Positions 1 through 57,711 of a stretch of 64,000 nucleotides of DNA are shown here, piece by piece. Under the pieces are notes generated by a model that searched no databases, had not been told where the DNA came from, and saw nothing but the letters and a program-made list of their open reading frames with translations. Position numbers and translations under genes: made by a program. The first letter of the stretch is position 1, and every line of letters starts with the position of its first letter. This DNA comes from a virus (Duplodnaviria; Caudoviricetes): IMG/VR virus record IMGVR_UViG_3300037501_000255; one strand, given 5' to 3'.

Positions 1-3000
1 TAGCGATGAAGAACGTATATCACATCCCATCATTTTGACAATATTAATGTAAGATGAGATCGATGATGTGCTGCTAAAGATACATGAGTCAAATATCACA
101 GTGCCTATTGATGTTAGCGAGAATGCACCGTCAAATGTCACATTTCGAAACGTGATGACCGAGTTCGATGCCGGATTTCCAACAACAGTTCCAGATATGC
201 GCACTGAGTCTAGTATAACAGAGTTGCATGTATTATTGATTTGCAGAGATGCAATATGCGCCCGGCTCCTATTTGGCGTAGTATTGGATTCTATTCTTAT
301 ATCTGAATTTACTTCAATATTACCTACCGAACCCGAGATCAGCAGTGAGTAGTCCTTGCTTCCGGCTGAAATTGTAATTGGATAGGTTGTGTCGTTTGAT
401 ACTACCCTGAGGTTTAGGTTGTCGTCAAACGGCGTGCTGTTTATATGTTGCTCGGCAGCCTCATACGATGCAAATGTGCCAATTCTCCTGTTTGTAGTAT
501 CTAATATAAAGTCTAACTTATAATCAATTTCATTGATAAAATATCTTACATCAATTAAAGATAGTGGGTTTGGCCCGGAGCCTGTATGCGTGACTATTGC
601 CAGAGGCGCTATTCTGCCAGCATATCCGTCTATCACTTCTGCAAATGATAATTTGCCATCATATATAGTGTTGCCAATCTCTAGATATTGCAGCGTTCCT
701 AGATGCGTTGCATAAACGCAGTATGATGCAGCTGCTTGCGGAAAGAATATTGGTTGCGTTGGGATGTCTGAACGTACGCCGTTCACATACGCAGTGCCGC
801 CACGGAACAGCACCCCGTATACGTTGCTGCCCAGACCTGTAATGCTCTCGGCATCTGTGTAGTTAATTGTTATGGCATCAAATCCCGACACCACGCCATC
901 TGCCCGCAGCTCTCTTAGCGGCAACTCTGAATACGCCTGCACTACATCTTCGCGCAGTTCATCTAACCCGGTCGTACCAAACAATCGCCGATCAGTGATT
1001 GATTTGAGAGTAATTGTCCCATCAAACCACACCGAGCATAGCTCTAGCACCTCCTCTTCTAGAGAGTGCGGGTATACGTTAAGAGATATAGTGCCTGTGC
1101 CTACAATTGGGCTTTGAATTGCTATAGTTGCTGTAGCTGCGTACGATGCATCGCGCAGCGTGATTGAGCCAGAAAAATCATTAGGCACAATGTTCGCAGC
1201 ATTGCTACCGAATGCCAATGCTCTACCACCAGCTACTGCCGCAACCGTGAGTGCGTCTGTGCCTGCAGCAAAGTTATCTGAAATGTCAATTATGCGGACG
1301 CTGTTGGTAACATTTGTAACCTGTGCGTAATCCGCCCTGAGTACATATCCGGCTCTGCCCCGCACATCATAATACATTTCAACAAGTGTGTGGCTAGTAT
1401 AATTTTGAATATCATCCAGAGGCACCGCATCATGTAGCACCTCTATACTAACTCCATTTTCTGTAGTTATGCCGGCATTCTTATGAATCGTCACGCTAGA
1501 TGCGTTGACGCCGGTGATGAAATATGTGCCTAGCTCAGAAGTGTTTGTATGTGTTTTAAGGTGCAGGAGGTGCCCAACCTTCACCCCCAATGCTAGGGGG
1601 TTTTCTCCATTTGGAAATGTAAATACCTGCCCCATCACATTTGCAGTGGTGGTCAGGATAGATGCAACGTCGTATAACCTCTCGCCATTCACATAGAATG
1701 AAGCCGACTGTGTTGGGTATATTTTAATGTCGTCGACTGCAGCGCCGTAGCCGTCCAAACCAAGTACGTATAGGGTGTTTGGCGCGGAGAGGCTTGAGTC
1801 AATTTTCAAATAGTAATCGTCCGACCCTGCCCAGTTGTGCGAAAGAAGCAGCTCTTCGCCGACCTTATATGCTGCAACGGGGAATGCATTTCCATCTGTA
1901 CGATTTTGCAGTACATGATTTAATCTTTCAACTAATGAATCTATCGTCGGTGGAGACATGACCGTAAAATTACGGTCATAGTGAAGATTGTCTATCGTAA
2001 TCGTCCGACTTAATCCAGGTCCTACACCCAATTCTATTCCGAGGACGTGTGTTGGATCTATAAATCTAGTATTTAACCCCAGCGATAGTACCTTTGCTGC
2101 ATTTGAACGGGATACCTGTATACTATCAACCCTTATATCGGATTGATGTATGGTGGGGGCCATATTGCCCTTCAGTGTTGATGTGGAGCTGGGTGTAAAG
2201 ATCGCTGCATCAGCATACCCGTCATACGGGATATGCTCAGCCAGTGATATCTGGTTTGACGTAAGCGCCGGCCTTGAGCCTATGGCAGCTCTAGGCCCTA
2301 TTCCTTCAATAGTAAATACCCCAATAGCAGCAGACGGCGCAAAGAACCTCACCACATCTCCTGGTGAGATGCCGAATGCATTGACTGAATAACCATCGAA
2401 TTGCACAGTTCGTCTATCTGACAATATATATGACTGAACTGTGCTCCCGTATGTAGGTGGAAGCAGTTGTCTGTTTACACCATGCCCATTCCGTTCATTG
2501 GCAAAATTTGAAAATCCATTGGCATGCAAATCATCGCGGTGGGCGACGAAAAAAGTTTCCTCTAAGGTTTCAAGCTCACCGATTGCACCCTGCAAATCCG
2601 TGCTTGAGATTCTACTCAGCCCCGATGTGTCTAGAGAGATTGCCGACGCAGGGTGAGCTCCTATTTTGTTGGTACTAGTGTGATCAAACAGCATGTCCTT
2701 GAGGGCAAAAATCGCTTGACTTACACTCACCACATTCAGCGGCGAAATGTTGGGGGGCGGAGTGGTTGGATATGCAGTCTCTAGCAGAATCTGGTATCCG
2801 TCATGCTTAAATCCTGCACCTGAAATATGTGTTAAGAAATTTGCAAGTATTAAGTTTACATTGTTCTGTAGCGCTGCTATGTCTATATCATTCGATGCTA
2901 TTAGATTATATAGGTTCTGCGTAGAGTATACCAGATCTAGCTTCGACTCTTCTATGGCTGCCGTTGGCGCCACCATAGAATTTGTAATTGGCAGTGCGAT

Positions 3001-3234
3001 CAGACCAGCTGCAACAAGCGCTGCAGACTTAAAGGTGCCATCCGGATTTAGCACAGCATCTAGGCGATCTTTAAGAGAGCGTTCTGTTCCTTGGACATCA
3101 GTACCCAGCGTTGCCTCAATAGCAAATATGGCCTCGCGTATTGCATTTATAGCCTCACTACCTATTTCGGTAATGTTATTTGTTACTCCAGGCAACTCAG
3201 CAGCAGTGTCGAGCTTTGATGGAAATGATGACAT
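1..3234 (-). CDS. Tail fiber/spike protein, 3'-truncated by the window edge (>=1078 aa; not in the ORF track)
   Basis: Hand translation from ATG at 3234 (SD AGGTG) is open to base 1: MSSFPSKLDTAAELPGVTNNITEIGSEAINAIREAIFAIEATLG... It is a clear paralog of the 3245-7954 protein (LNPDGTFKSAALVAAGLIALPITN; IDISDNFAAG vs LEVSDNFPSG). 5 DGY. Confidence 0.85.
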   Translation of the reverse strand, partial: MSSFPSKLDTAAELPGVTNNITEIGSEAINAIREAIFAIEATLGTDVQGTERSLKDRLDAVLNPDGTFKSAALVAAGLIALPITNSMVAPTAAIEESKLDLVYSTQNLYNLIASNDIDIAALQNNVNLILANFLTHISGAGFKHDGYQILLETAYPTTPPPNISPLNVVSVSQAIFALKDMLFDHTSTNKIGAHPASAISLDTSGLSRISSTDLQGAIGELETLEETFFVAHRDDLHANGFSNFANERNGHGVNRQLLPPTYGSTVQSYILSDRRTVQFDGYSVNAFGISPGDVVRFFAPSAAIGVFTIEGIGPRAAIGSRPALTSNQISLAEHIPYDGYADAAIFTPSSTSTLKGNMAPTIHQSDIRVDSIQVSRSNAAKVLSLGLNTRFIDPTHVLGIELGVGPGLSRTITIDNLHYDRNFTVMSPPTIDSLVERLNHVLQNRTDGNAFPVAAYKVGEELLLSHNWAGSDDYYLKIDSSLSAPNTLYVLGLDGYGAAVDDIKIYPTQSASFYVNGERLYDVASILTTTANVMGQVFTFPNGENPLALGVKVGHLLHLKTHTNTSELGTYFITGVNASSVTIHKNAGITTENGVSIEVLHDAVPLDDIQNYTSHTLVEMYYDVRGRAGYVLRADYAQVTNVTNSVRIIDISDNFAAGTDALTVAAVAGGRALAFGSNAANIVPNDFSGSITLRDASYAATATIAIQSPIVGTGTISLNVYPHSLEEEVLELCSVWFDGTITLKSITDRRLFGTTGLDELREDVVQAYSELPLRELRADGVVSGFDAITINYTDAESITGLGSNVYGVLFRGGTAYVNGVRSDIPTQPIFFPQAAASYCVYATHLGTLQYLEIGNTIYDGKLSFAEVIDGYAGRIAPLAIVTHTGSGPNPLSLIDVRYFINEIDYKLDFILDTTNRRIGTFASYEAAEQHINSTPFDDNLNLRVVSNDTTYPITISAGSKDYSLLISGSVGNIEVNSDIRIESNTTPNRSRAHIASLQINNTCNSVILDSVRISGTVVGNPASNSVITFRNVTFDGAFSLTSIGTVIFDSCIFSSTSSISSYINIVKMMGCDIRSSSL

Positions 3235-3244
3235 TTATAACACC

Positions 3245-6200
3245 TTAACAATATACTAGAATACCTATATTTCCTACCTGATTAGACGCGGCCGTGGACG
3301 ATATTGTTACAAAATATTCGCGATTAGGGGATACGTATGGGTTTTCAGTAGGAGGGGTGTAAGCCGTTGCTGTAATTTGGAGTGCGCCTGTGCCGACGTT
3401 TGACACGGCGCCTGATAGTGCTATGGCCGGCGTTCCTACACCTATGTCGCGCGCCCAGAGCTGTGCGGTTAACGAAGCGTTGACTGAGCAATTAGCATAA
3501 ATCGTGCATGATACTATAGTAGATCCTATCTGTAGATTATTAAGCGGCACGGCTAAACCCGAAGTGGTGCCTGAAGAGGTGAGGTAGCGCCCGCCTGTAT
3601 TTAGTGCCCACGCACTTGTTGCAAAGGCCCCAGAGCTAGTATTGTATGAAAGCCCGTCTAATGCAGAGTACATTTGAAGAAATTCTGCATTTTTGTTATT
3701 GATTATATATACATCTTTAGTAGAATTTGATAATATTTTTCTGGCGCCGGGCGCCGCTGTATTTCCTACTATATTGCCATTCACAGATATATTTGTGAGT
3801 AGCGAGCCGCTAATATTTATTGAGGCAGTGGTTGGTGATGATGCTGAGGCGTTTATTAAATTATTGTGTATGTGTGTAGAGTGTTTTTCATTAAGTATAA
3901 CATTGCCTGTTGATATGAGATTTGAGTTAAATGTATTTCCGTATATGTTAGTACGCGTACCCGTAGAGCTATGAGGTTCGAGATACATAAGATTTATACA
4001 TGGTGATCTTGGAGATATAATGTTTCCAGCAAATACAATATTGCCATCCCCCGACACTCTTATGCCGTTTTGAGGAGCGTATGTGTCAATAATGTTATCT
4101 GCTATTAGTGCAGTGTCCTGAGAAGTGCTAGAATAGTATAGCGATAGTGAATCAGGTGTGGCCGTGGATGTTGAACTTAGAACTATATAGTTATCTGTTA
4201 TGATATCCTTAGCTGCTACCGACAGTATACTCCATGCTCCTGCCGATATATAGTTTGAGCTTATTATAGCATTAAATGATTCTATTGAATGGTAGTCGCT
4301 TAATTCTACGTAGTTATTTTGAAATATAACGTCGTAATCACCCCCAATGGAAAGTGCAACATAATTATTGATGATGTTCGTATCTGCTAGAATCATATTG
4401 CCAGATATTGATGCCGGTCCGAGCGCCTTTAGCACATAACCGTCATGTTCCCATATAATATTATTTGAGAGTATAAGGCTAGAATCGACACCATTATAGT
4501 TGATAAGGTATCCGGATGATGACGGCGGCACAGAGCAATTTGTGAATATATTTCCAGATACGGTTATTGCTGGCGTATCGAGTATAAAAGAGTATTGCAA
4601 ATCTATAGTGTCTGCTGCAGATGTTATGTCATAGAATGTATTACCTATAATTGTGCAGGAATCTAACTTACTGCCTGCTCGCAGACATGCGCCCAGGCCG
4701 CCTGCATAATTACTCGCGAATGAGTTATTGTGCACTGCAATATATGTGTGTAGACTATTGATTCCGCTCGGTGCCAAATCAATTGCCCTGTCATAAATAG
4801 ACTTGAATGTATTTGACTCAACAACAAGTCCGTTGGTTTTATTTGCAAGTATTCCATTTGAACAATTTTCGAAAACACAATCAGAGATATGTGTATTTTC
4901 GATATTCATTGAAGTTGACGCAAATGATATACCAGTATAAAGGTTATTGAAGCGGACGTTTGTTATTGCCAGATCTGCTGATATCGCAGCGCCGGCGACC
5001 TTAATTCCTATTCTATTTGCATTTGCCCATGACCCAATTGTGCCGAGTCTAATTAATTGGCAGTCTCTTATTACATTTCTATTATAACCATGCTGAAGAG
5101 CTATAATTGATGCATTGCTGTTATTTGGCAATGATAGGGTAATATTTGATATGGTGTTGTACCCATCCTGAATCGAGATACACGGGTCTGTTGCGCCAGT
5201 AAAAACTATACTTGCATAATTATTTCCAATGATTGAAGAGTTGGAGCCAGTAATGATAACGCTGTCCAGGCTTGCAGATGAATTAATTTGCAATGTACAA
5301 TTTGAACCTAAAATAATTTGCCCTGTGACCGACAGTACCCCACCTACATTTAGCGTTGCGCCATCCTGCAGGGTAATTGACGTTGCTGCGGTGTTGCCTT
5401 TTATATTGACAATACTCCTCTGTCCAACCGATAGAGTTGTAAAAGTTGCATCACCTAAAAATTCCAGCAGTTTATCCGCGGCCGTTACAAGCGCGTCTGT
5501 AGCAGCATAATCCGAGGTTATGATAAGCTTCTGTGGCAAGGCCATAGCTGGATATGAGGCGTACAGCTGTGATGCCTGAATTGAGGCAAATGAAGCAGTC
5601 GTGGTTGCGCTCAATGTGGGAACATACTTGAATGGCAAACTATTTATGAAAAATCTAGCATCACTTACTGTAGATATATTTCCAGATAGTGTTGTGAATT
5701 GAGCGATAGCAATTCTCTTTCCTGAATTGACTATGTCGCTTAGAGAATATCCTGGATACGAATCATTAAATATCTCCAGTTTAGCATTCTCATTTATTGT
5801 AAGATTCCATGTTCCATCAGAAGCGATCTTATTAAAGACATCTATAGTTACTTCTGCAAAGTCTACTAGTTTACCGGCCACAAGCGCCCTGCCACCCGCA
5901 ATCGTCAGCTCCGTTGCTGAAATATCCGTGGTTGATAGCCCACGAATAACTCCGCCAACCAATATGTCTGCGCCATATGCCGTTGCAAATTCATGAATTG
6001 CAGCTGTTGATAGCTGCTCGGCACCCACGGTACCTCTCGGTGTTTTGTCGATTGGTATTGATACTACTAGGCCGCCATCAAAATATGTACTTGCCAGCTT
6101 CATTTGCGTATCATCTATTTCATTTGAATAAAACGCAATAGAGCTTGTTATGGCTATTAGTGACGCCGATGTTACCAGGCATGTTATGTAATTAATCCCG

Positions 6201-7954
6201 TCTGCGGCATATACTTTCACCAGACCAATAAAACCTGACGGGAACGTTGTGGCGGCGCCGACGGCAGCGTTTACCGTAAGCTGCAAAGAGTTGGTGGAGC
6301 CCGTTGTCAGCTGTAGGAGTCCTGTACCTGACGGAAAATTGTCACTGACTTCCAGAATATCTATGCCAGATATTGGGGCAAGGGTAACAACATAGCGATC
6401 TACCACAGACAATTGTAAATGTGAGTCTATGATGACATCTACTGACCGTGGATTGCTGCTCGCTCCAAGGTGGGCGGTGTCTCTGTAGATAATGCAGTCA
6501 AATGTTCCCGCAGCAACTGTAGTTGCTAGATTGATTTGAGTAGATGGCGGCGGCCCTACTGCCGATATGCTATAGGTTCCTGCTGCGGCGGAGCTTGAGT
6601 GATTAAAAATATGAACCAGGTTGCCGGGCTTGAGGTCAAGTCCTCCGGCTCCAACAAGTGTGTGGAGATTTAGGATGGACGATGGTGCACTGAGCGTAAT
6701 TGTTCCACTGTATACTGTCGCTAGGGCTGTGAATTGATATCCGTCAATATATGCCTGCGTACTTAGTAGATACGGCGCTGTAATATTGTCTATGTCAGTG
6801 AATCCAAATGCATACATTGCTGAATTTATAATTGGAGACTTGACTTTAACTGTACAATCTGGGCGGGCTATATTGTGCTGAATAACAATTTCCCCATCTC
6901 CAGCATCATATGCCTGCAGTGGGAAGTGGTTCGCTGTATTTGCAAAGCTAGCATTAAGGTGTTCTACTAGAGCCTTTACTGGAAATCTATCATTAGTCGT
7001 AGGATATTGCGCCGTGTGCAAACCAGTGACCGACAGTGTTCTTGTGCTTGTACCGATTTGCACTTCGAAATCCAAACTTTGAGCAGAGGGACTTAGAGCT
7101 AACGGATTTAGATTTCGTGTTTTAATCGAGGCCGCATTGATGTGCCCTATCTTGATCTGATCCCGTCCTGCCGTAGGCTGATATCTTGATGTGACAAGTG
7201 CTGCTGCAGAAGACCCCGCCTGTCCGCCATGAGCAGAATATCCGTCACTGATGACTCCATTGCCATGCGCAGAGTCATTATGTATTCTGCGATCTTCTTG
7301 ATATGCGGTATCAATCTGGGATATTGCTCCCTGTACGTCGGTAGCTGTAATTGGACTGTCTACGTCTGGAGCATACGAGATCGCAGATGCGGGATGCTGT
7401 CCTGTAGCTGAGCTGCTTTTATGTACAAGCAGTGCGTTATATATGAATTCTAGCGCCTGCCCTACCGTTGTAATGGATGGGGCGGATTCTAGGCCGCCGG
7501 CTATATCTATATGGTATCCGTCATGGCGCTGCGCTGTGCCACTAACATGGTTTGACAAGGTTACGACCAGCGCATTATACATGGACTGTAAATATGCAAT
7601 ATCTATATCATTTGATGATATTTGATTTTGCAGTGCCTGCGTACCCACATCCAGATCTAGCTTTGACTCGCTAATCGCGGCTGCGGAACCTATCATTGCA
7701 TTGGTGATGGGCAGTGCTATGAGTCCCGCCGCTACCAGCGCAGCGGCTTTAAAAGTACCGTCGGGATTTAGTGTCTGGTCAAGGCGCGTCGTCAGGTCAG
7801 CTGCTGAGCCATGAGGGTTTATTCCCAATGTGCGCTCAATAGCAAATATCGCATCGCGTAGGGCATTAATGTGCTCTGCTGCTAGTTCCGTAGCATTATC
7901 GGCGACTGGAATTAGTTCAGCGTTAGTATCTAGCTGCCCAGGGTATTTGCTCAA
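3245..7954 (-). CDS. Tailspike/fiber with N-terminal anchor domain and C-terminal right-handed beta-helix (possible depolymerase)
   Basis: 1569 aa, TTG start with SD GGTGA. The C-terminal half has repeated parallel beta-helix rungs (ISDCVFENC, VESNTFKS, IIGNTFYD, VSGNIFTN, FAGNIIS, IYGNTFN). 5 DGY. Confidence 0.75.
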   Translation of the reverse strand: MSKYPGQLDTNAELIPVADNATELAAEHINALRDAIFAIERTLGINPHGSAADLTTRLDQTLNPDGTFKAAALVAAGLIALPITNAMIGSAAAISESKLDLDVGTQALQNQISSNDIDIAYLQSMYNALVVTLSNHVSGTAQRHDGYHIDIAGGLESAPSITTVGQALEFIYNALLVHKSSSATGQHPASAISYAPDVDSPITATDVQGAISQIDTAYQEDRRIHNDSAHGNGVISDGYSAHGGQAGSSAAALVTSRYQPTAGRDQIKIGHINAASIKTRNLNPLALSPSAQSLDFEVQIGTSTRTLSVTGLHTAQYPTTNDRFPVKALVEHLNASFANTANHFPLQAYDAGDGEIVIQHNIARPDCTVKVKSPIINSAMYAFGFTDIDNITAPYLLSTQAYIDGYQFTALATVYSGTITLSAPSSILNLHTLVGAGGLDLKPGNLVHIFNHSSSAAAGTYSISAVGPPPSTQINLATTVAAGTFDCIIYRDTAHLGASSNPRSVDVIIDSHLQLSVVDRYVVTLAPISGIDILEVSDNFPSGTGLLQLTTGSTNSLQLTVNAAVGAATTFPSGFIGLVKVYAADGINYITCLVTSASLIAITSSIAFYSNEIDDTQMKLASTYFDGGLVVSIPIDKTPRGTVGAEQLSTAAIHEFATAYGADILVGGVIRGLSTTDISATELTIAGGRALVAGKLVDFAEVTIDVFNKIASDGTWNLTINENAKLEIFNDSYPGYSLSDIVNSGKRIAIAQFTTLSGNISTVSDARFFINSLPFKYVPTLSATTTASFASIQASQLYASYPAMALPQKLIITSDYAATDALVTAADKLLEFLGDATFTTLSVGQRSIVNIKGNTAATSITLQDGATLNVGGVLSVTGQIILGSNCTLQINSSASLDSVIITGSNSSIIGNNYASIVFTGATDPCISIQDGYNTISNITLSLPNNSNASIIALQHGYNRNVIRDCQLIRLGTIGSWANANRIGIKVAGAAISADLAITNVRFNNLYTGISFASTSMNIENTHISDCVFENCSNGILANKTNGLVVESNTFKSIYDRAIDLAPSGINSLHTYIAVHNNSFASNYAGGLGACLRAGSKLDSCTIIGNTFYDITSAADTIDLQYSFILDTPAITVSGNIFTNCSVPPSSSGYLINYNGVDSSLILSNNIIWEHDGYVLKALGPASISGNMILADTNIINNYVALSIGGDYDVIFQNNYVELSDYHSIESFNAIISSNYISAGAWSILSVAAKDIITDNYIVLSSTSTATPDSLSLYYSSTSQDTALIADNIIDTYAPQNGIRVSGDGNIVFAGNIISPRSPCINLMYLEPHSSTGTRTNIYGNTFNSNLISTGNVILNEKHSTHIHNNLINASASSPTTASINISGSLLTNISVNGNIVGNTAAPGARKILSNSTKDVYIINNKNAEFLQMYSALDGLSYNTSSGAFATSAWALNTGGRYLTSSGTTSGLAVPLNNLQIGSTIVSCTIYANCSVNASLTAQLWARDIGVGTPAIALSGAVSNVGTGALQITATAYTPPTENPYVSPNREYFVTISSTAASNQVGNIGILVYC

Positions 7955-9325: not shown

Positions 9326-9877
9326 CTAGATCAATCTTTGCTTCAATCTGGCCGACACCACATTGCCAGACAGCACAGTACAGCCTAGAATTTCATTGCC
9401 AGCCCACACCACATGCTCGAGGGATGAGTCTGCTAGAGAAGCTCTGATTATATTATCTCCGACTATTAGATCGCAGTCTACATACGTTGAGTTTATTTGT
9501 TCATCTCCTGGGGAGCCCGCGTACCCATCTAATATTTGTCCATGACGTAAATAGGTGGTGCTGCTGAGCGCTCCAAGCAAGTTTTGTGCTTGCTGATCAT
9601 CATCGTACACATCGGATGCTGAGGTGTATTCATCAAGGCTTTTTAGATACTGGTATAGCTCTGTAAGAATTGATAATTCTGAGGCTATTGAGCCATCTAT
9701 ATGATACACCCTGGTTAATAGAGGTTCTGCGCCGGAGGTCCGAGCAGCGCTATTGAAGAAAACTTGTACTTCAAACTTTATCTCTCCGCCATTTGATCCG
9801 GTCACTTTTGTAATCTTATGATAAGCTTCTGGCATATCTATACCAAAATTAGTTGTTGTACCTGCAATTATACCCAT
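9326..9877 (-). CDS. Tail-fiber-associated protein with C-terminal extension
   Basis: N-terminal part (AYHKITKV...LYQYLKSLDEYTSASDV) is paralogous to 32839-33117 (AVHKVLE...VYNWLKTLPEYTGAADV). Both flank fiber genes. Confidence 0.55.
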   Translation of the reverse strand: MGIIAGTTTNFGIDMPEAYHKITKVTGSNGGEIKFEVQVFFNSAARTSGAEPLLTRVYHIDGSIASELSILTELYQYLKSLDEYTSASDVYDDDQQAQNLLGALSSTTYLRHGQILDGYAGSPGDEQINSTYVDCDLIVGDNIIRASLADSSLEHVVWAGNEILGCTVLSGNVVSARLKQRLI

Positions 9878-9881: not shown

Positions 9882-12800
9882 TTAACCTCTGGTTCTCAAT
9901 TGTGGAATAGCTTTATATGAAATATAGTCTATGAATAAATCCATGTCGTTTGCGCCGGCGGTATTTGATTCTACCTGCGCAAATACATGCACCTGATCTG
10001 TGTCCATGTATAATGAGGCGCCCGACACGCTGTGTTCCAGCACATCATTTATGTAGAAATTTATGTCTGTGCGTGCGCCGATCGTGAAGTACGTCCGCAT
10101 CTCGATAGATAGTCGTGTCCACTCAGAAGTATCCGCTGTGCCGGTATCGGTGTTGTACCACACGGTACCGTTGTCAGATACCCTTGCGAACCAGTTGCCG
10201 CCGGTACACTCAAACCATACGCCGTGTGTGGGAATAGCATCGCTTACGGTATCTCCGATACCAATCCTAATATCATAATTTGGATCTGCTTGAGAAATTG
10301 GACTCATTTTGATCATTGCATCAAATACTGTAATGGCGGCAGCGAGATTTAAGGCCCCCTGTTGGCTATAGAGTATGGCGTAATTGGTCGCGGACGTGCA
10401 TGGCACATTGAGTTTGACTACTCCAAATGTCTGTTCTGTACATTGGGTTGTATCCAGCGTCACCGTGCTGCCGGTCACGGCTGTGGTCCACGTGCCGAAG
10501 TTATCTGCAATAAAGTCATCCGAAAATTCGACTATCTTATATGTCCCGCCCCACTCTAGACGACCATTTGAGTCTGTTGCTACCAGTGTATCAAGCCATC
10601 TTTCTGGAGGATTTGTATAGGTAGAACTATCCGATATGTATAGTATCTCTGTTGTATTTCTCTTAATTCTAAGTATATCCTCAGATGTGGACGGGGCATT
10701 TGTAATTTCAAGCATCGCTGTTGGATTATTTAGTCCAATTCCAACTAGACCGGTTGAGCTGACTCGCACACGCTCATTATTGCCGCCAGAGGCAAATATG
10801 AGGTTGCTTTCTGCTCTCAGAGCAAGATCGGCGCCGGTACCGGATGATATTGCTCCGCCACCTCCAGTTCCTAAGTAACCCACAGCAGCGGAACTGCCTG
10901 GTTGGCGAAATGTCATGTATGAGGCGGCAGCGACATCCGCCCCCCATATTGCCCATTGTTGACCAATTGTGTTTACCTGTAATTTTGTCTGAGGGGAATC
11001 CGTCCCCATGCCTATATTTCCATTGTGATCTATGACGATGCCGTTATTTGTTATGCCGGTTGCGTAAGAATTAGAGGTGCCGAGATACAGCTTGCTACCG
11101 CTCCCATCTAAACGTGTATATATTCCAGCCTTGGGTTTGGTTGCGTTGTTATTTTGTGTAGACCAGAATATACCTGGTGTAAAGGACGGGTTAGTATAGT
11201 CAGTCTCGATATTAATACCGGCGTTGGCAATATCCTGAGTGAAGTTCGTCTGTGTGGCGCTTTCGTTGGCGTTATACACGTTTAGAGTTGTATTTGGAGT
11301 TGTCGTATTTATACCGACCAGTCCGGCACTATCTATAATAATTCTTGTATTATTGCCTCCTGTTCTAAGGCGCATGGCATTGTCGCCACCAACATTATAT
11401 ATTATGCCGCCACTAACACTGTTGGATGTCAGTCCAAACAGCAGTCCACTTTCATTGGCATCTGGCGTTAATAGTTGTAAATACCCAGCTCCGGCTCTTT
11501 CAAATGTAGCTATTGCGCCGCTATTTGATGATGCCGATGCATCCGAGGCCATAACATGCAACCTGGTATCCGGAGCGGTGGTGCCTATTCCAACAAATTG
11601 GTTGTGATTTATCGACATGACGCTATTCAGCGTGGTGCTGGAGTCTGCTGTTGTTAGGAATTCTAGCGCGGTACCACCAAGTCCGCTTCTTGCTACGGCC
11701 TGAACTCTTGCCCTGACACCGGATGCTCCGGCACTTGCATCGTTGCCGAACCACTCTAAAGCGCCGACAACATCGCCCGCCGTCCACGATACGTCGTCGT
11801 AGTCAAATCTCAGCAGTGCGCCCAGGGTCGTGCCTGCAGCTGCTGATGCCGAGGAGCGCAGGTGGAGCATAGCCGCAGGCTGGCCTGTACCTATTCCTAT
11901 ATGCCCATCCTCGTCAATTCGCATGCGCTCAACCAGCGTCCCCGATGTAGTGGCCGTATAGAATGTCAATTGTCCAGCTTCGGCATCGTACGGATTGCTT
12001 GCTAAACCTGATATCTTGGCAATACGACGATTTGCGGTGGAGGATAAGTAATTACCGAAAGCCACCAGTCCCAGCTCTGCATCAGGTACAGGAGATGATA
12101 GCATCCGCATGTCTATAGACGGCACATTTGCAAGAGTTGTGTCTTGCATTGTAATGTCGCCGTTGTTTATGAATAATTTAGTTGTAGTATTAATAGAGTC
12201 GTACGGTGACGTACCGCCGATGGCGAGGCGACCGGCTACATAACCGTCGCTTCCAGCACCAAAGTTACGAGCTACATACCCATCCTCTCCTACAATAAGA
12301 TCTTTGGATACTAATACTGTGCCTGAATTTCTATTGTAAATGTCATTACCACTGCGCATCCAATTAGCTGCAGTGTCTGAAGCGAGCGCCCCCACATATA
12401 CGTAACCGTCTACAGTGCCCAATGATAGCGAAAGATTGTCCTCGCTAGTCACTATTCCAGCATAGTAGTCGAATATCCAATCCTGTGAGGCTAGTGGCGG
12501 AACCTCTGCAATTCCATCACGAAGGCGGACGCGGAAATCTGCCCCCAAGAATTCGGGTATAAAATACCCGACTCGCTGCCCTGTCGCATAGACTGTGCCT
12601 GTTAGTGGATTTATTCTGCCCGCCAACTCAGCAGGCACCGCGCCAGTAATTGTGGCCTTATAAGCCTTTCCTGCCGATGAGCCATCCAATACGAGCGGTA
12701 TTGTGACCGCTACAGCGATATTTCCAGCGACTGCCGCAGCGCCCGTGGCAGGTATCGTATCCGCAAATATGGTTTGCGCTGCTAGGCTAAGGCTTGATGC

Positions 12801-20263: not shown

Positions 20264-20406
20264 GCTATACCCCCAGGTATTGCGTAACTGATACATTTAT
20301 TTGCGCATCAGTTATGATCATATTATTATATAGCATTATGCCTCTAACTGCAACATTTGTTGTAATAGCATTTGCTTCACTATAACCCAAGAAATTGCAG
20401 CGCCTA

Positions 20407-44474: not shown

Positions 44475-45641
44475 TCAGGCTATGTCGAGCTCGTAGATCT
44501 TGGACCCGACCCCATACATTCTGTAAACACCTGCCTGTAAAGCAATCTCGCGCTCGCTTTTTTCTCCAGAAGCACGGTATTTGAATCTATGATACCTAGA
44601 TATTCCATCAGTATAGTAATAATCTGGTTTTGTATGGCCAACTTCGGAAAACCCACTAACCACATACACATTGCCAGTACCATAGCGCAAATCAGAATAT
44701 GACAGAATTTTTCTGTACCTTCCTGATAGCTCAGCCTTTACCGCCGCCAGTAGTTTACTAAACCCACCCATAACAGAGTGTCCTCGGAGCACTGCGAATC
44801 TTGCAATCTCAATAGTCTCTAAATACTTCTTGGTAAAAGGCTGTCGCATAGAGATTGCTGCGACGATCTGATCCGCATGCTGCAATCCCAGATAAAGCTG
44901 TCCGGCGGTATGTCCGGATATATGATTATATTTGAAAAATTCTGCTGCCGATTTGGCAGTTAGCGTAACCACATCACACCGCCTCGCCGCAATCTTCACC
45001 AGACCAGGCATGCCGGCCTTTGCAATAATCATAGACTTAATCAGATCTCTATTTGTGAGAAGCTCATCCATAAAAAACACAAGTGCTGTATATCCACCCT
45101 GTGCAGCTCTATAGAAATCTCTTGCTAAGAAACGGTACTGTGAGAAATATGTTGAGTTTGGAATTATGAGGATTATTGTCTGACCATTAGATACGATCCC
45201 GGTATCCTGGTCAAAATCAAAACCTATTTCATTAGCAAATTCGTTAATTATAGGCATATGTGCGGAGTAAAGACCAACCAAGCTTTTTAAAGTGCGGCAA
45301 ATATCTACCAGCTGCACTGCGGCGGCGTCAATGGACCGAATCTCCCTAATCACACGCCGTGCCCGACCAGCACGACTTAGAGAGTATGCCGCTCGACTCC
45401 TTCTGTTAGAATTAATCTCTGACGGATCTATAAATCTCCGCAGCACGCGACTAACAGTCATCTTATTACTAAAGATTATGTCGGGATGCGACGAAATCTG
45501 TTCGACAGTAAGCCCCGACCTATACAGGTCAACGCACATCCGCTCATTCCTCAAATACTCGGAATGATGGTGGACTCGCACATGCTTTGAAATGTACACA
45601 GATTGCTTTCCACAAATACGACACACTACACTCGCCTCCAC
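44475..45641 (-). CDS. Hef-like homing-endonuclease-family protein (Zn finger + HTH + degenerate nuclease + GNAT-like domain)
   Basis: GTG start at 45641 with SD GGAGG. CRIC...H..H finger. C-terminal IAARRC...NHISG...EIARF...GGFSKLL...SYSDLRYGTGNVY...GF matches the phage Hef-like pattern. Confidence 0.7.
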   Translation of the reverse strand: MEASVVCRICGKQSVYISKHVRVHHHSEYLRNERMCVDLYRSGLTVEQISSHPDIIFSNKMTVSRVLRRFIDPSEINSNRRSRAAYSLSRAGRARRVIREIRSIDAAAVQLVDICRTLKSLVGLYSAHMPIINEFANEIGFDFDQDTGIVSNGQTIILIIPNSTYFSQYRFLARDFYRAAQGGYTALVFFMDELLTNRDLIKSMIIAKAGMPGLVKIAARRCDVVTLTAKSAAEFFKYNHISGHTAGQLYLGLQHADQIVAAISMRQPFTKKYLETIEIARFAVLRGHSVMGGFSKLLAAVKAELSGRYRKILSYSDLRYGTGNVYVVSGFSEVGHTKPDYYYTDGISRYHRFKYRASGEKSEREIALQAGVYRMYGVGSKIYELDIA

Positions 45642-46684
45642 GTATATCCTCCATGGCTTTTTCTCCGTCCCAGACAACAAAGAGAAACTTTGTTAGGCAT
45701 AAATCCATCCAATAACGTAGATGCAGTATCAGGGTACTCCTTCTGCTCGCCCGTCTCAATAGACGTTCCAATTACCCGGCCTTTACTACGCTGCGGAGCA
45801 ACAAGTGACTGGCTGAGAGGAGAATCTCCCCACTCCCAAAAACAGCCTTTATGCGTGCGGCGCGTGCCCTCACAGCACGAAATGACATTCCCTACCGAGT
45901 AACCGTCGCCAGAGACGGCAGATACCATTGGATACAGAAATACAGTACCATCCGAACAAGATATTCTGCGGACACACCTCCCGCTGACCTTTCGACGCCT
46001 TGGCGCCTTTTTAGGCACAACGGCACTAGAAATTTCATTATTGAAACTCCATAAATAACCATTATGAGATTTAAGCTGCGACCGACAGCACGCATACACA
46101 CTGCTATATGTGGCTCCCGGCGTGTTACGCACGGCCGCAGAGATGCTGTCAAAAATGCACTGGTTACCACCATCTAAATCACTTCTAATTATACTACAAG
46201 ATATCCTAGTAGTTATAAACTTTGGACTTGTACCATCAGCAAATTGCCACAAGTACCCGCGATGACTTGCCATATGTCCATGGCAGCACGCCGTAATACT
46301 ACCCTCGTTAAACCCTTCTAGGGCCGCTAAGTCACGCGTAGCGAATTCTACAGATTCGCCGGTTTTCATATCGATACGAACAATAGGCCTATTCGGCGGC
46401 GGATTAGGAGCATTAACGTCTTTAGATATATTGTATTCAGGCTGAATAGTATCTATATAGAACTGCTCGAGATCAAAAAGATTGGTTGTATCACACTGCT
46501 CAATAACTTCAAACACAAAAGCACTGGGACCGTATTTTTCCCATGCAGATTGAAGATACCTTGAGTGATGCTTGCCGTTCCGCAAATCGCGCCTGTGGCA
46601 TTGCCACCTAGATTTTATGTTGTTAGACGAGCCTATGTAGCAATGTCCAGATAATACATTGTATATTATATAGATGCCAATCAC
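45626..46684 (-). CDS. Free-standing GIY-YIG homing endonuclease with NUMOD1-like repeats
   Basis: GIYIIYN...CYIGSS...RW..H...L...H...LQSAWEKYG...FEVIE, followed by four repeats ending CC.G...SH.GY.W. Confidence 0.93.
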   Translation of the reverse strand: MIGIYIIYNVLSGHCYIGSSNNIKSRWQCHRRDLRNGKHHSRYLQSAWEKYGPSAFVFEVIEQCDTTNLFDLEQFYIDTIQPEYNISKDVNAPNPPPNRPIVRIDMKTGESVEFATRDLAALEGFNEGSITACCHGHMASHRGYLWQFADGTSPKFITTRISCSIIRSDLDGGNQCIFDSISAAVRNTPGATYSSVYACCRSQLKSHNGYLWSFNNEISSAVVPKKAPRRRKVSGRCVRRISCSDGTVFLYPMVSAVSGDGYSVGNVISCCEGTRRTHKGCFWEWGDSPLSQSLVAPQRSKGRVIGTSIETGEQKEYPDTASTLLDGFMPNKVSLCCLGRRKSHGGYTWRRV

Positions 46685-46751
46685 AATAATTATTATTGGC
46701 TTGTAACGTTGGATGGACTTTAGATATATAAATCAGCACAATGTTACAAGC

Positions 46752-46785: not shown

Positions 46786-46816
46786 CACTGCTGCCTTTTG
46801 GCAGCTAATTCAGCTA

Positions 46817-50103: not shown

Positions 50104-50775
50104 TCAGCGCGCGCCGTGACCGGCGTGGAACGCGACAACTACGCGTGGGTAGAGTACCGAAAGGGTAGTCGTACCAACCAGTTTGGCTGGGGTGGTGACG
50201 AGCGAACCACTCGAGGAGAACTCGACGAACGTAGCAACACCAGAGCTGGCAACGAGACCGCTACAATCTGCGTGAGCAAGCTTGGAAGCGCTATTAAAGC
50301 CAAGGGTAGCGCCCGGAAGCAGACCCGCGAATCCGATGCTGGATACGAAGTCTGAGGCCAGCGAGGAAACCGTAACCTCATAGAGCCCAGGCTTATCCCA
50401 GAGGGTTACCTTGCCAGAAGCTGCGGCGCTGTGCGGACCGAGGTTGGTGCCAGTGACCGCAAGGCCGGCTGTGGTGCCAATCGTCTGACCGAACATCGTG
50501 CCGTAACCAGCAAGACCGTCGTCGGCCAGAGCCAGCATACCATTTACGTCTGCAGCGAGCGCGAGGCGAGCGGCAGCGCGGTTAGCAATTGGGCCGGAGG
50601 CGTCATAAAGGTAGCCGTCAAGCGCGTCAGCGGCAGCCTTCTCGGAGGCCGAGAGGGACGTGGAGGCTGACGTGAGTGCCATAACCTCGCCGCCAGTAAC
50701 GGAGGCTAGGTCGGTGTCTAAGCAATCAAACTGACCAAGTGGCATAAGGCCAGGTTGTAATGGAAAAAGAGCCAT
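50104..50775 (-). CDS. Capsid decoration/cement protein
   Basis: Probable start MALFPLQPG at 50775 (SD AGGA). Directly upstream of the MCP, with MCP-like codon style and motif ASGKVTLWDKPGLYE. Confidence 0.7.
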   Translation of the reverse strand: MALFPLQPGLMPLGQFDCLDTDLASVTGGEVMALTSASTSLSASEKAAADALDGYLYDASGPIANRAAARLALAADVNGMLALADDGLAGYGTMFGQTIGTTAGLAVTGTNLGPHSAAASGKVTLWDKPGLYEVTVSSLASDFVSSIGFAGLLPGATLGFNSASKLAHADCSGLVASSGVATFVEFSSSGSLVTTPAKLVGTTTLSVLYPRVVVAFHAGHGAR

Positions 50776-50854
50776 AATTGAATCCTTTGTAAATTTTGTT
50801 TCGCCCTGCCCAAACAACTTGGGCTAGAAAAACAATTCAAAATCTGTACTTTTG

Positions 50855-56706: not shown

Positions 56707-56714
56707 ATAAGCTC

Positions 56715-57017
56715 CTACTTTAAGATCTGTTTAATGTCATCTATCGCTAATTCAATTTCTAGAGCTGCTCGTGAATTGTCACCAACAAGCTCAGCAATCC
56801 TATTCAGCTCATTAATTATTAGATGACTCGCCCCGGTACGATGCAGCGCATTTAACTCATCATGAGCCTCGGCCAGCAGACGGTCCTCCAGTTCAACATC
56901 CACCGCAAGAGCCTGCTGCGATTCTGAGGGTGGTGGAGTTTGGCTAGCCAAAATCTCTAACATAGTGCGGGCCACTTCGCTATTCTTCCAATTACCATCT
57001 TCGTGATCAAAAATCAT
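56715..57017 (-). CDS. Small acidic helical head protein
   Basis: 100 aa; LNRIAELVGDNSRAALEIE resembles the family helix-hairpin motif. Confidence 0.55.
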   Translation of the reverse strand: MIFDHEDGNWKNSEVARTMLEILASQTPPPSESQQALAVDVELEDRLLAEAHDELNALHRTGASHLIINELNRIAELVGDNSRAALEIELAIDDIKQILK

Positions 57018-57024
57018 ATAGTCC

Positions 57025-57711
57025 TCACAGCCAAATAAATTCTAAAAATGGATTGTGCGCAGTTGGCGGCACAATACACATCCCCACACCCGGCTGCTCG
57101 GGCATAGTTTGTTCTGTAGTTAGTTTTCCGCTAGCACTTACAAATAGCGTAGCATTTACACTATAAGCTGTCATTTCATATTGATCTGTCTGAAAAATTC
57201 CACGAGACCACCATATGGTAATCCTACCAGAGCCCACCGTTGTGTCTTCGCCGGCAATATTGGGCACATAGTATGTGTACTTAACACGCGTTCTTACTGC
57301 GTTTGGTGTCAGAGAGTCATCAGTTGCGAAATTGAGCTCAGTGCCGGCAGGTGCTTTCAGAATGCCATTAATAGGATTTAACTTTAAACCAGGGTAATCT
57401 GCTACAAAAGAACTTGCTATAATATTAGCATTGTATAGCTCTTTTGATGTATCCATAGCATTTACCCACTTATATCCATCAAATAGTGGCACGCATGGTA
57501 TTACAACTAATTCATCATTCACAGGTGCTGAGAAAGCGGTTGTCCTGATATCATCTATTATGCCAAAAGGAGCTCTTCCATCGGATACACCCAGCACATG
57601 ATCATTTCCAATAACCTTGAACTGCGCAATCATGCCAGGTTCGAACGTGGCATTCGGATCAACTGGATAAGAAACTGGTCTGGCATTTCCAGATTGTATA
57701 ACTCTAAGCAT
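57025..57711 (-). CDS. Capsid decoration/cement protein paralog
   Basis: MLRVIQSG... and DTTVGSGRITIWWSRGIFQTDQY...LFVSASGKLT align with the 50104 and 33321 motifs. Confidence 0.6.
   Translation of the reverse strand: MLRVIQSGNARPVSYPVDPNATFEPGMIAQFKVIGNDHVLGVSDGRAPFGIIDDIRTTAFSAPVNDELVVIPCVPLFDGYKWVNAMDTSKELYNANIIASSFVADYPGLKLNPINGILKAPAGTELNFATDDSLTPNAVRTRVKYTYYVPNIAGEDTTVGSGRITIWWSRGIFQTDQYEMTAYSVNATLFVSASGKLTTEQTMPEQPGVGMCIVPPTAHNPFLEFIWL

What the first reader, a model, noticed from the sequence alone, without database searches (positions are those of the whole stretch)
620..57480. Virion-wide Asp-Gly-Tyr (DGY) tag: candidate sequon for an undescribed modification or docking system on outer virion proteins
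Seen: a manual count gives 63 DGY in 19 proteins (~11,900 aa, about one per 190 aa). By ORF start: 1:5, 3245:5, 9326:1, 9882:3, 12908:1, 15039:3, 17118:4, 19469:1, 20407:4, 21785:7, 26484:2, 28489:9, 33321:7, 37783:1, 38970:1, 40018:5, 41373:2, 50104:1, 57025:1. With rough assumed frequencies (D ~6-7%, G ~9%, Y ~4%) only about 3 would be expected. Codons vary (GAC GGA TAC, GAT GGT TAT, GAC GGG TAT, GAC GGC TAC), so this is protein-level selection and not a DNA repeat. It occurs in unrelated folds (beta-helix, Kelch, FN3-like, Ig, decoration, neck) in turn-like contexts. It is absent from the MCP and the ~4,000 aa of inner-head/scaffold proteins, although these contain over 20 DG dipeptides. 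Caveat: those proteins are helical and Tyr-poorer. Inference: DGY is recognised on surface-exposed virion proteins by a phage or host factor. Candidates are Tyr O-glycosylation or another Tyr modification, Asp-Gly aspartimide/isoAsp chemistry, cross-linking, or binding of a small decorating protein. Established context: some mycobacteriophages glycosylate virion proteins with phage-encoded glycosyltransferases, and Tyr O-glycosylation is known in bacterial S-layers. No modifying enzyme is recognisable in this window.
Basis: partly seen in the sequence, partly recalled or inferred. Interest (0 to 1): 0.93.

Follow-up and report, generated by a model that had tools for sequence, protein, structure and literature searches.

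The report
DGY tag on giant-phage appendages
The tail, fibre, neck and decoration proteins of this uncultured phage of about 370 kb, and of its whole clade of giant phages, carry the motif Asp-Gly-Tyr about 15 times more often than chance; this is a real, undescribed mark, most likely a recognition site, perhaps for the sugar-adding enzymes these phages encode beside their fibre genes.

Summary
The window has 64 in-frame DGY against about 4 expected (2000 shuffles, maximum 13). DGY is the only outlier tripeptide (z = 30). It acts at protein level: 64 of 65 GAYGGNTAY lie in frame 0 and 1 lies on the other strand.

Neither paralogy nor fibre composition explains it. The 64 sites fall into at least 31 independent contexts, and about 70 unrelated phage structural loci sit near background.

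It is a clade trait. All 29 larger IMG/VR giant-phage records with the neck-protein homolog show it, at 34-56% GC. It is confined to appendage modules; non-virion genes are at expectation.

In one fibre family, 21 homologs carry 3-9 DGY and 22 carry none, split by a single branch.

Sites usually sit as turn-turn-first strand residue. They also occur in a disordered linker (kept in 117 of 122 homologs) and in tandem arrays. Tyr is not swapped for Phe, nor Asp for Asn.

Best guess (0.35): an acceptor or recognition motif for cytoplasmic virion glycosylation. A GT4-led glycan island without membrane proteins directly follows the giant DGY-bearing genes in 5 of 5 relatives. This is not shown, and a structural hairpin idiom remains a serious rival.

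The scan has already noted and followed up the same motif in other genomes.

The parts
1..3234 (-). Giant fibre/baseplate protein (N-terminal 1078 aa in the window; the ORF runs off the window start), 5 DGY
   Evidence: 5 vs 0.19 expected; 46% identical ortholog in G001 with 6 DGY
3245..7954 (-). 1569-aa beta-helix-like fibre protein, 5 DGY
   Evidence: 5 vs 0.25; weak NosD/beta-helix match
9326..9877 (-). 183-aa virion protein, 1 DGY
9882..12899 (-). 1005-aa fibre protein, 3 DGY
12908..14998 (-). 696-aa virion protein, 1 DGY
15039..17111 (-). 690-aa virion protein, 3 DGY, all shared with the G001 ortholog
17118..19223 (-). 701-aa Kelch-like virion protein, 4 DGY, all shared with the G001 ortholog
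19469..20296 (-). 275-aa virion protein, 1 DGY
20407..21777 (-). 456-aa fibre protein, 4 DGY
21785..23848 (-). 687-aa protein with tandem FN3 domains plus a Cys-rich C-terminal domain (clade marker), 7 DGY
22526..22561 (-). Linker DGY-x6-DGY (residues 430-441 of ORF 21785) in a low-confidence, probably flexible segment. The second DGY is kept in 117 of 122 homologs
   Evidence: (pLDDT about 45-51)
26484..27377 (-). 297-aa protein, 2 DGY; its family is present in all compared genomes
28489..32793 (-). 1434-aa long fibre, 9 DGY, all within residues 1-817; the C-terminal 620 aa have none
33321..35492 (-). 723-aa fibre, 7 DGY
37783..38970 (-). 395-aa protein, 1 DGY
38970..39926 (-). 318-aa fibre-like protein, 1 DGY; the G004 ortholog (42% identity) has 0
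40018..41316 (-). 432-aa fibre with a C1q/jelly-roll knob, 5 DGY. Its family splits into 21 DGY-rich and 22 DGY-null homologs
41373..42914 (-). 513-aa paralogous fibre, 2 DGY
45626..46684 (-). Homing-endonuclease-like ORF with 1 DGY.
50104..50817 (-). 237-aa decoration-like protein beside the MCP, 1 DGY, conserved in G001 and G002
57025..57711 (-). 228-aa head-module protein, 1 DGY; the orthologs in G002 and G014 have 0

Best explanation
DGY is a short linear recognition motif that this clade of giant phages has spread over its tail, baseplate, fibre, neck and decoration proteins. It is usually displayed at the tip of a beta-hairpin (Asp-Gly in the turn, Tyr as the first strand residue) or in flexible linkers. 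Its most likely reader is the clade's own cytoplasmic glycosylation machinery. That machinery is a conserved GT4 glycosyltransferase followed by a run of soluble GT2/GT32 transferases and sugar-nucleotide enzymes. It is encoded immediately downstream of, and co-oriented with, the giant DGY-bearing virion genes. On this reading it would build a glycan on the motif (probably on the Tyr hydroxyl) before or during assembly and so coat the virion's appendages.

Shown: the enrichment, its protein-level nature, its restriction to one clade and one class of proteins, purifying selection with turnover, and the conserved synteny with a glycan island that lacks membrane proteins.

Inferred: that the island acts on proteins, that DGY is its acceptor, and that Tyr is the modified residue.
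For: 1. Specific tripeptide. DGY scores z = 30 and no other tripeptide comes near. No other order of D, G, Y and no near-miss (DGF, DGW, NGY, EGY, DAY) is enriched. Pro never follows the motif (0 of 185 sites).

2. Selection with turnover. Between the window and G001 orthologs (44% identity) there are 29 shared sites, plus 16 window-only and 19 G001-only sites whose counterparts are mostly unrelated residues.

3. Clade-specific, not fold-specific. About 70 unrelated structural loci are near background. In the ORF40018 family 21 homologs carry 3-9 DGY and 22 carry 0, separated by one 100/100 branch; the null clade has DET, DDT or DEV at the same hairpin positions.

4. Class-specific. Virion bins give 101 vs 7.9, 82 vs 7.8 and 40 vs 4.2 expected. 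Non-virion bins give 3 vs 3.2, 8 vs 8.3 and 15 vs 10.4.

5. Not only structural. The best-conserved site (117 of 122) lies in a linker with pLDDT about 45-51, and tandem arrays exist. When Tyr is lost with DG kept, the replacements are I, S, K, T, V, A and H, and Phe only 2 of 39 times.

6. Candidate reader. The A2-type GT4 is present full length (E 1e-97 to 1e-202) in 26 clade records, including 12 of 12 complete ones. It is absent from all outgroups.

7. Synteny. In 5 of 5 locally analysed genomes the GT4 directly follows the DGY-bearing proteins of about 2300 aa and about 950-1500 aa on the same strand. It opens a run of 15-30 genes with GT2, GT32 and epimerases and no multipass membrane protein.

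8. Dose trend. The DGY index rises with the number of GT2 genes: Spearman 0.61 (n = 26) and 0.69-0.73 (n = 17 records at least 75% complete).

9. Precedent. Cytoplasmic stepwise protein glycosylation that is genetically linked to its substrate, and Tyr O-glycosylation, are both established in bacteria (review PMC12645811).
Against: No glycan, mass shift or enzyme-substrate contact is shown.

No transferase lies in this window. The island in the window's own genome is known only from an unchecked first-stage note, and it was not seen among the top 120 GT4 hits.

The DGY trait and the GT4 island each map to one branch, so their co-occurrence amounts to a single evolutionary event. The GT2 correlation is not corrected for phylogeny.

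The DGY-poor G024/G026 lineage keeps the GT4 island. G007 (3.4-fold enriched genome-wide) has the GT4 but no GT2 and no strong epimerase.

Phage glycosyltransferases can instead modify DNA or host surfaces.

In the two FN3 domains the DGY Tyr sits at the FN3 tyrosine-corner position (Y-x-F-x-V-x-A). That is a core structural role and would not be accessible after folding.

Non-virion proteins show no avoidance of DGY.
Confidence: 0.35

Rival explanations
1. Intrinsic structural idiom. DGY is this clade's preferred way to build a tight Asp-Gly beta-turn followed by a Tyr that caps or anchors the next strand, in the manner of a tyrosine corner. On this reading it was inherited and re-invented in the beta-sandwich, beta-helix and hairpin-repeat domains that make up phage appendages, and no outside reader is involved.
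For: AlphaFold2 secondary structure puts D-G in a loop and Tyr at or just before the first strand residue in 6 of 7 sites of ORF21785 and 4 of 5 sites of ORF40018, three of them classic two-strand hairpins. The FN3 sites read DGY-Y-F-A-V-R-A, so the DGY Tyr falls on the FN3 Y-x-F-x-V-x-A tyrosine-corner position. A tyrosine corner needs the hydroxyl, which would explain Tyr over Phe (textbook knowledge: Hemmingsen et al. 1994, from memory). No Pro at +1 and mildly hydrophobic +1 to +3 fit a strand. The restriction to beta-rich appendages and the absence from helical head-interior proteins also fit.
Against: Structural preferences are universal, yet about 70 unrelated phage structural loci and the 22 null orthologs of the same fibre fold do without DGY; they place T, V, A, S or G where the clade has Tyr. 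Asn-Gly, the best type I' turn, is not used (NGY 2 vs DGY 64). The classic tyrosine corner has Gly at Y-2, not at Y-1. The most conserved site lies in a low-confidence linker, and tandem DGY arrays exist. Counterparts of lineage-specific sites are about half polar.
Confidence: 0.27
2. Docking or folding signal. DGY is bound non-covalently by a clade-specific protein. Candidates are an assembly chaperone (for example the phage-encoded type I DnaJ working with host DnaK) or a small decoration or cement protein.
For: It shares the clade and class specificity and the linear-motif behaviour described for the best explanation. A full-length DnaJ (J domain, zinc finger, C-terminal domain) is present in 11 of 12 complete clade genomes. 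It is absent from the DGY-poor G024/G026 lineage and from all outgroups.
Against: Known DnaJ and DnaK clients are hydrophobic or basic stretches, not an acidic turn (from memory). A stoichiometric binder would be needed in thousands of copies per virion, and no such abundant small protein is evident. The DnaJ contrast rests on one lineage. G017 has DnaJ but only moderate DGY enrichment.
Confidence: 0.13
3. Another chemistry on the motif: Tyr sulfation, phosphorylation or adenylylation, oxidative Tyr-Tyr cross-linking, or Asp-Gly succinimide/isoaspartate formation used as a cross-link or a timer.
For: Strict need for Asp (not Asn or Glu), Gly and Tyr (not Phe). Asp-Gly is the most isomerisation-prone Asp context, and acidic residues near Tyr favour sulfation (textbook knowledge, from memory). 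Tyr/Asp/Gly-rich tandem arrays recall cross-linked elastomeric proteins.
Against: No sulfotransferase, kinase, Fic, PIMT or tyrosinase was looked for systematically, and none surfaced among the genes annotated here. GT8 is absent. Dispersed single sites are poorly suited to pairwise cross-links. There is no co-enriched partner motif.
Confidence: 0.12
4. Artefact: a DNA- or RNA-level signal, amino-acid or codon composition, or a few paralogous repeats counted many times.
For: Some sites are paralogous (a G-x-DGY-V-L-T fibre motif, a W-K-DGY-F-G-P motif, the FN3 pair). In Bacillus phage G, the apparent 6-fold excess in the fibre genes is mostly two repeated modules (9 of 14 sites).
Against: 64 of 65 pattern hits are in frame 0 and only 1 lies on the opposite strand, with all synonymous codons used. 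At least 31 independent contexts remain. The excess holds across genomes of 34-56% GC. It survives first-order correction.
Confidence: 0.01

Closest known systems
Cytoplasmic sequon-directed glycosylation of fibrous adhesins (HMW1C/NGT at Asn-X-Ser/Thr; GtfA/GtfB on serine-rich repeat proteins; flagellin glycosylation by Maf)
   Same: A short or simple acceptor motif is present many times in large fibrous surface proteins. Soluble transferases act in the cytoplasm without lipid carrier, flippase or oligosaccharyltransferase. The enzyme genes are linked to the substrate genes (review PMC12645811; details of HMW1C and GtfA from memory).
   Different: The motif is Asp-Gly-Tyr, with no Asn, Ser or Thr acceptor. 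The conserved enzyme is a GT4 followed by GT2/GT32, not a GT41. The substrates are virion proteins of a phage. Nothing has been shown biochemically.
Virion glycosylation in mycobacteriophages (Freeman et al. 2023, as cited in PMC12619734) and in chloroviruses and mimiviruses (from memory)
   Same: Virus-encoded transferases lie beside structural genes and glycosylate virion proteins independently of host secretory machinery. Chloroviruses use non-canonical sequons and multi-domain transferases.
   Different: In those systems the capsid and tail tube C-termini (mycobacteriophages) or the MCP (chloroviruses) are modified. Here the MCP has no DGY and the motif marks the appendages. No tripeptide tag spread over about 20 proteins has been reported.
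Bacteroidota general O-glycosylation motif D-(S/T)-(A/I/L/V/M/T) (from memory; the system is mentioned in PMC12645811)
   Same: A three-residue motif that begins with Asp and marks hundreds of exported proteins of a whole lineage.
   Different: The acceptor is Ser or Thr at position 2. That system is periplasmic, en bloc and lipid-linked. DGY has Gly at position 2, and the phage proteins assemble in the cytoplasm.
Tyrosine O-glycosylation (S-layer proteins; PaTox and Yersinia toxins on Rho Tyr; glycogenin)
   Same: A Tyr hydroxyl is an established glycan acceptor in bacteria (PMC12645811).
   Different: No DGY-type sequon is known. The enzymes are of other families, and GT8 is absent here.
Tyrosine corner and type I' Asp/Asn-Gly beta-hairpin turn (structural motifs; from memory)
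   Same: Tyr lies at the start of a strand next to a tight Gly-containing turn in Greek-key domains. The FN3 sites match the corner position.
   Different: The classic corner is L-x-P-G-x-Y, with Gly at Y-2. These motifs occur in all lineages, whereas DGY is clade-specific, also occurs in linkers and tandem arrays, and excludes Asn.

Membership tests
Sequon-directed cytoplasmic protein glycosylation | Short acceptor motif over-represented in the substrate proteins and under selection | tested here: met
   64 vs 4 expected; 64% of sites conserved at 44% overall identity, with turnover; motif-specific
Sequon-directed cytoplasmic protein glycosylation | Soluble glycosyltransferase(s) encoded with or next to the substrates, with no flippase, polymerase or oligosaccharyltransferase | tested here: inconclusive
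   Met in relatives: the GT4 lies directly downstream of the giant DGY proteins in 5 of 5 genomes, and the island has no multipass membrane protein. It is not in this window. For the window's own genome there is only an unchecked note, and it was not found
Sequon-directed cytoplasmic protein glycosylation | Covalent glycan on the motif residue | not testable with these tools
   Needs mass spectrometry of virions or of co-expressed fragments
HMW1C/NGT-type N-glycosylation | GT41 enzyme and Asn-X-Ser/Thr acceptor | tested here: not met
   The conserved enzyme matches GT4 families PF00534, PF13692 and PF13439. The motif has no Asn
Mycobacteriophage-type virion glycosylation | Glycans on the capsid and tail-tube subunits | tested here: inconclusive
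   The MCP pieces carry no DGY, but only about 0.05 is expected. The tube was not identified in the window
Tyrosine corner | Tyr at the start or end of an antiparallel strand of a Greek-key domain | tested here: met
   For the two FN3 sites: the strand begins at or after the Tyr, and Y-x-F-x-V-x-A is in register. Most other sites also lie at strand starts
Tyrosine corner | Consensus L-x-P-G-x-Y with Gly at Y-2, and a hydroxyl hydrogen bond to the backbone at Y-3 to Y-5 | tested here: not met
   Gly is at Y-1 and Asp at Y-2. There is no Pro or Leu preference at Y-3 to Y-5 beyond 1.5-1.8-fold. The hydrogen bond could not be tested without coordinates
Type I' beta-hairpin turn | Asn or Asp at L1 and Gly at L2, in any lineage | tested here: not met
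   D-G does sit in two-residue turns. But Asn-Gly-Tyr is not used (2 vs 64), and other lineages with the same hairpin use D-E-T or D-D-T
DNA or RNA sequence motif (restriction, methylation or nuclease site) | Occurs in any frame and on both strands or in intergenic DNA | tested here: not met
   64 of 65 in frame 0; 1 hit on the other strand

The most novel reading that the evidence does not exclude
DGY is the acceptor sequon of a previously unknown, virus-encoded, cytoplasmic tyrosine-O-glycosylation system. The system lays a glycan coat on the tails, baseplates and fibres of a whole clade of giant phages (several hundred metagenomic genomes, 200-480 kb). It would be the first sequon-defined virion glycosylation in phages and the first Tyr-directed sequon known.
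Probability: 0.3. Interest if true: 0.9.

Novelty: new variant of a known kind. Interest (0 to 1): 0.78.

Why it matters
A three-residue motif that has been driven to 10-18 times its expected frequency in about twenty unrelated virion proteins is a strong evolutionary signal of an unknown molecular reader. It has been kept for the whole history of a large, globally distributed clade of giant phages.

- It would define a new protein-glycosylation sequon, probably on Tyr.
- It would explain why these phages carry 15-30 sugar genes with no export machinery.
- Glycosylated sites could then be predicted from sequence alone.
- It would offer a portable tag for glyco-engineering.

If the motif is instead purely structural, it is a rare documented case of a lineage-specific folding idiom spreading across folds.

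Either way, DGY density is a simple sequence marker for this clade and for its appendage proteins, most of which have no other annotation.

Tried and rejected
DNA- or RNA-level motif: rejected on frame and strand.

Composition or codon bias: rejected by shuffles, by the first-order expectation and by the 34-56% GC range.

Paralogy: partly real but insufficient, with 31 independent contexts.

Generic property of phage fibres: rejected.

Bacillus phage G as a cultured DGY-positive model: rejected.
- The MCP is 51% identical, and the fibre genes show 14 vs 2.2 expected.
- But 9 of the 14 sites belong to two repeated modules, and the fibres are not homologous to the clade's.
- Phage G's transferases are T4-like alpha-glucosyltransferases beside nucleotide-metabolism genes, and it lacks the clade GT4.

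GT8 (glycogenin-like Tyr transferase): absent.

Searching for the discriminating gene by comparing DGY-rich genomes with DGY-poor G026:
- G026 is too divergent; only 34 shared proteins were found.
- The 12 'rich-only' genes include the MCP itself.
- Among them are an AAA ATPase, a class V aminotransferase and DnaJ.

Independent (convergent) DGY-rich clades: none found among the weaker loci.

Solvent exposure of the Tyr: not measurable, because model coordinates are not returned. The hydrophobic-periodicity proxy was uninformative.

PDB homolog of the 848-aa candidate sheath protein: none by sequence.

Reaching the window's own glycan island: the whole genome is not held. The contig look-up returned only short contigs. 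The GT4 family search did not list the 367,953-bp contig among its top 120.

Literature: no paper links DGY with phages or with a sequon.

Full report
**1. The window.**
All long ORFs lie on the minus strand. They form the appendage, neck and head part of a large phage. The window's proteins occur on a contig of 367,953 bp, and the source is a freshwater metagenome. No close relative exists in GenBank phages at DNA level. The major capsid protein of the nearest relatives is 51% identical to that of Bacillus phage G, so this is a G-like giant myovirus lineage known only from metagenomes.

**2.
One more DGY lies in a homing-endonuclease-like ORF (45626-46684). The total is 64 DGY in 19,995 aa against 4.0 expected.
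- Two thousand per-protein shuffles give mean 4.07 and maximum 13. Even the first-order expectation (12.8) is exceeded fivefold, with P about 2e-24.
- DGY has z = 30. The next tripeptide with real counts (KKK) has z = 7.8.
- Tyr follows 33% of all Asp-Gly, and Asp precedes 57% of all Gly-Tyr.
- DGF (3), DGW (0), NGY (2), EGY (2), DAY (1) and the five other orders of the three residues are at background.
- The nine-base pattern GAYGGNTAY occurs 65 times on the coding strand, 64 of them in frame 0, and once on the other strand. All synonymous codons are used.
- This shows selection on the peptide, not on DNA or RNA.

**3. It is neither paralogy nor a property of fibres in general.**
- Sensitive BLAST of the +/-40-residue contexts leaves 31 unrelated groups, 25 of them singletons. 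That is still P about 2e-17.
- Seventy-six structural loci of other phages, fetched because they share one fibre domain, have observed/expected mostly between 0 and 2 and DGY/GY about 0.07. The exceptions are close relatives of the window phage: L001 at 17-fold and L023 at 11-fold.

**4. It is a clade trait.**
- Homologs of ORF21785 (tandem FN3 domains plus a Cys-rich C-terminal domain) keep 5-10 DGY down to about 40% identity, and mostly 2-6 further out to 26%.
- All 29 larger IMG/VR records (62-481 kb) that carry this protein show a strand-skewed excess of the pattern over a reversed-pattern control. Examples are 165 vs 5, 130 vs 8 and 105 vs 1.
- At protein level, whole relatives give G014 105 vs 14.8 expected, G033 100 vs 19.6 and G007 57 vs 16.7. 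The G017 virion block gives 23 vs about 4. These genomes range from 34 to 56% GC.
- The excess is confined to the virion blocks: 101 vs 7.9, 82 vs 7.8 and 40 vs 4.2.
- Distant, non-virion bins sit at expectation (3 vs 3.2, 8 vs 8.3, 15 vs 10.4), so the motif is neither enriched nor avoided there.
- One sub-lineage (G024/G026) is DGY-poor: 36 vs 21 genome-wide, and 7 vs 3.4 in shared orthologs where G014 has 26 vs 2.3.
- Outgroups are at or near background. These are a 408-kb giant phage (G005), LR745208 and Lu11.
- Phage G looked positive (14 vs 2.2 in gp420-431). But nine of its sites belong to two repeated modules, and its fibres are not homologous to the clade's. I do not count it as positive.

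**5. A natural experiment within one fold.**
- ORF40018 is a fibre with hairpin repeats and a C1q-like knob. It has 43 full-length homologs at 38-69% identity.
- Twenty-one of them carry 3-9 DGY, and nearly every GY in them is a DGY. Twenty-two carry none. No homolog has one or two.
- A maximum-likelihood tree separates the two sets by a single branch with 100/100 support.
- Where the rich clade has D-D-G-Y-L, the null clade has D-D-E-T-L, D-D-D-T or D-D-E-V. The same hairpin therefore works without Gly-Tyr.
- The change happened once, so any clade-specific gene is confounded with it.

**6. Selection and turnover.**
- Window and G001 orthologs are 44% identical overall. Yet 29 of the window's 45 aligned DGY are retained as DGY; about 9% would be expected from identity alone.
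- There are 16 window-only and 19 G001-only sites, whose counterparts are mostly unrelated tripeptides.
- In the 122-member ORF21785 family, the DGY at residues 439-441 is present in 117 sequences.
- When Tyr is lost but Asp-Gly is kept, it is replaced by I, S, K, T, V, A or H, and by Phe only twice. This is not the pattern of an ordinary buried aromatic residue.
- The C-terminal 620 residues of the long fibre (ORF 28489) have no DGY, while the first 817 have nine. That is compatible with a recently imported tip module.

**7. Structural context.**
- The AlphaFold2 model of ORF21785 (pLDDT 82) puts Asp-Gly in a loop and Tyr at or just before the first strand residue in six of seven sites.
- The model of ORF40018 (pLDDT 77) shows three textbook hairpins, strand / T-D-D-G / strand beginning with Tyr. 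It also has one site just before a strand and one with Tyr inside the turn.
- Pro never follows the motif (0 of 185, about 7.6 expected). The flanks are otherwise nearly free.
- Two facts pull in opposite directions. In the two FN3 domains the motif reads DGY-Y-F-A-V-R-A, so the DGY Tyr occupies the FN3 tyrosine-corner position, which is a structural core role. Against that, the most conserved DGY lies in a linker with pLDDT about 45-51 (window 22526-22561).
- Relatives also carry low-complexity tandem arrays with several DGY within about 20 residues.
- Model coordinates are not returned, so solvent exposure could not be measured. A hydrophobic-periodicity proxy was uninformative.

**8. Search for a reader.**
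- The window holds no recognisable modifying enzyme. It has homing endonucleases, a patatin-like lipase and a prohead-protease-like domain.
- In relatives, a GT4-family transferase (alignment A2; PF00534, PF13692, PF13439) is present full length, at E 1e-97 to 1e-202, in 26 clade records. These include all 12 complete ones. It is absent from every outgroup. The family has at least 433 clusters in public data.
- In all five genomes analysed locally the gene order is the same. A protein of about 1080 aa, a DGY-bearing protein of about 2300 aa and a DGY-bearing protein of about 950-1500 aa come first. The GT4 then follows on the same strand, and after it a run of 15-30 small genes.
- Those small genes include GT2s, a 925-aa GT2+GT32 fusion, a 1149-aa GT-B+GT2 fusion and sugar-nucleotide epimerases/dehydratases.
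- None of the island proteins has more than two hydrophobic segments. No flippase-, polymerase- or oligosaccharyltransferase-like multipass protein is present.
- The island therefore builds its glycan on a cytoplasmic acceptor.
- Across 26 clade records the DGY index rises with the number of GT2 hits: Spearman 0.61, or 0.69-0.73 for the 17 records at least 75% complete. This is not phylogeny-corrected.
- Counter-points: G024/G026 keep the island although they are DGY-poor. G007 has the GT4 but no GT2.
- A type I DnaJ is present in 11 of 12 complete clade genomes and absent from G024/G026 and the outgroups. It is an alternative candidate reader, but it rests on one contrast.
- A first-stage note reports a 14-kb glycan island without membrane proteins in the window's own genome, about 58 kb beyond the window end. 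I could not reach or verify it.

**9. Interpretation.**
The specificity for the exact tripeptide has five features: one origin, restriction to appendage proteins, strong conservation with ongoing gain, and occurrence in both hairpin tips and flexible linkers. A trans-acting reader explains these best.

The conserved, substrate-linked, membrane-free glycan island is the most concrete candidate. Cytoplasmic stepwise glycosylation linked to its substrates, and Tyr as an acceptor, are both established (PMC12645811). I put this at 0.35.

A purely structural idiom (0.27) explains the strand-start position, Tyr over Phe and the FN3 sites. It does not explain the clade specificity, the exclusion of Asn, or the linker and tandem sites.

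A docking or chaperone signal (0.13) and other chemistries (0.12) remain open.

**10. Novelty.**
No paper in the searchable library connects DGY with phages or with a sequon. Phage G proteomics used only fixed and standard modifications.

Within this scan, the same motif has been noted in several other genomes of the clade, and two follow-ups reached similar conclusions. These are not independent evidence, but my tests on this window and on fetched relatives agree with them.

Noticed in passing
window 44475-49860: The major capsid protein gene is in pieces. ORFs 46817-47164 and 49558-49860 match different parts of the 339-aa MCP of G001 (82% and 69% identity). They are separated and flanked by HNH, GIY-YIG and other homing-endonuclease ORFs (44475-45680, 45626-46684, and probably 47385-48200 and 48622-49482). 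A first-stage note reads these as two group I introns.
   Followed up: partly
window 36055-36885: A patatin-like phospholipase (Pfam E 1e-34) is encoded inside the fibre module. It is conserved in G001 (58% identity) and carries no DGY.
   Followed up: no
window 25205-26419 and 35716-36024: Further homing-endonuclease-like genes (LAGLIDADG/NUMOD; HNH) are interspersed among the structural genes.
   Followed up: no
L077:1-885 (just beyond the window end): The large terminase gene next to the window carries an intein with a LAGLIDADG endonuclease (Pfam Intein_splicing, LAGLIDADG_2, GpA_ATPase). Some ORF21785 homologs (P0039, P0047) also carry Hint/intein domains.
   Followed up: no
window 28489-30345: The C-terminal 620 residues of the 1434-aa fibre have no DGY although they contain 6 DG. 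The first 817 residues have nine DGY. This may be a recently acquired tip module that has not yet accumulated the motif.
   Followed up: partly
L210:2061-3179 (G014); also G002 172170-173234, G033, G007: A class V aminotransferase / cysteine-desulfurase-like gene (Pfam E 4e-71) sits within or next to the virion module of DGY-rich relatives. It has no BLAST hit in G026.
   Followed up: no
L211:5694-6797 (G014) and 18 other clade records: A full type I DnaJ (J domain, CXXCXGXG zinc finger, C-terminal domain) is a near-core gene of the clade. It is absent from the DGY-poor G024/G026 lineage and from the outgroups.
   Followed up: partly
window 58188-62045: A 1285-aa head protein has a prohead-protease-like segment near residues 121-229 (PHROG E 1e-10 to 1e-15). 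It is Tyr-poor and has no DGY.
   Followed up: no
G002 161699-168809: Two large virion-module proteins (961 and 1408 aa) contain not a single Gly-Tyr dipeptide, in contrast to their DGY-rich neighbours.
   Followed up: no
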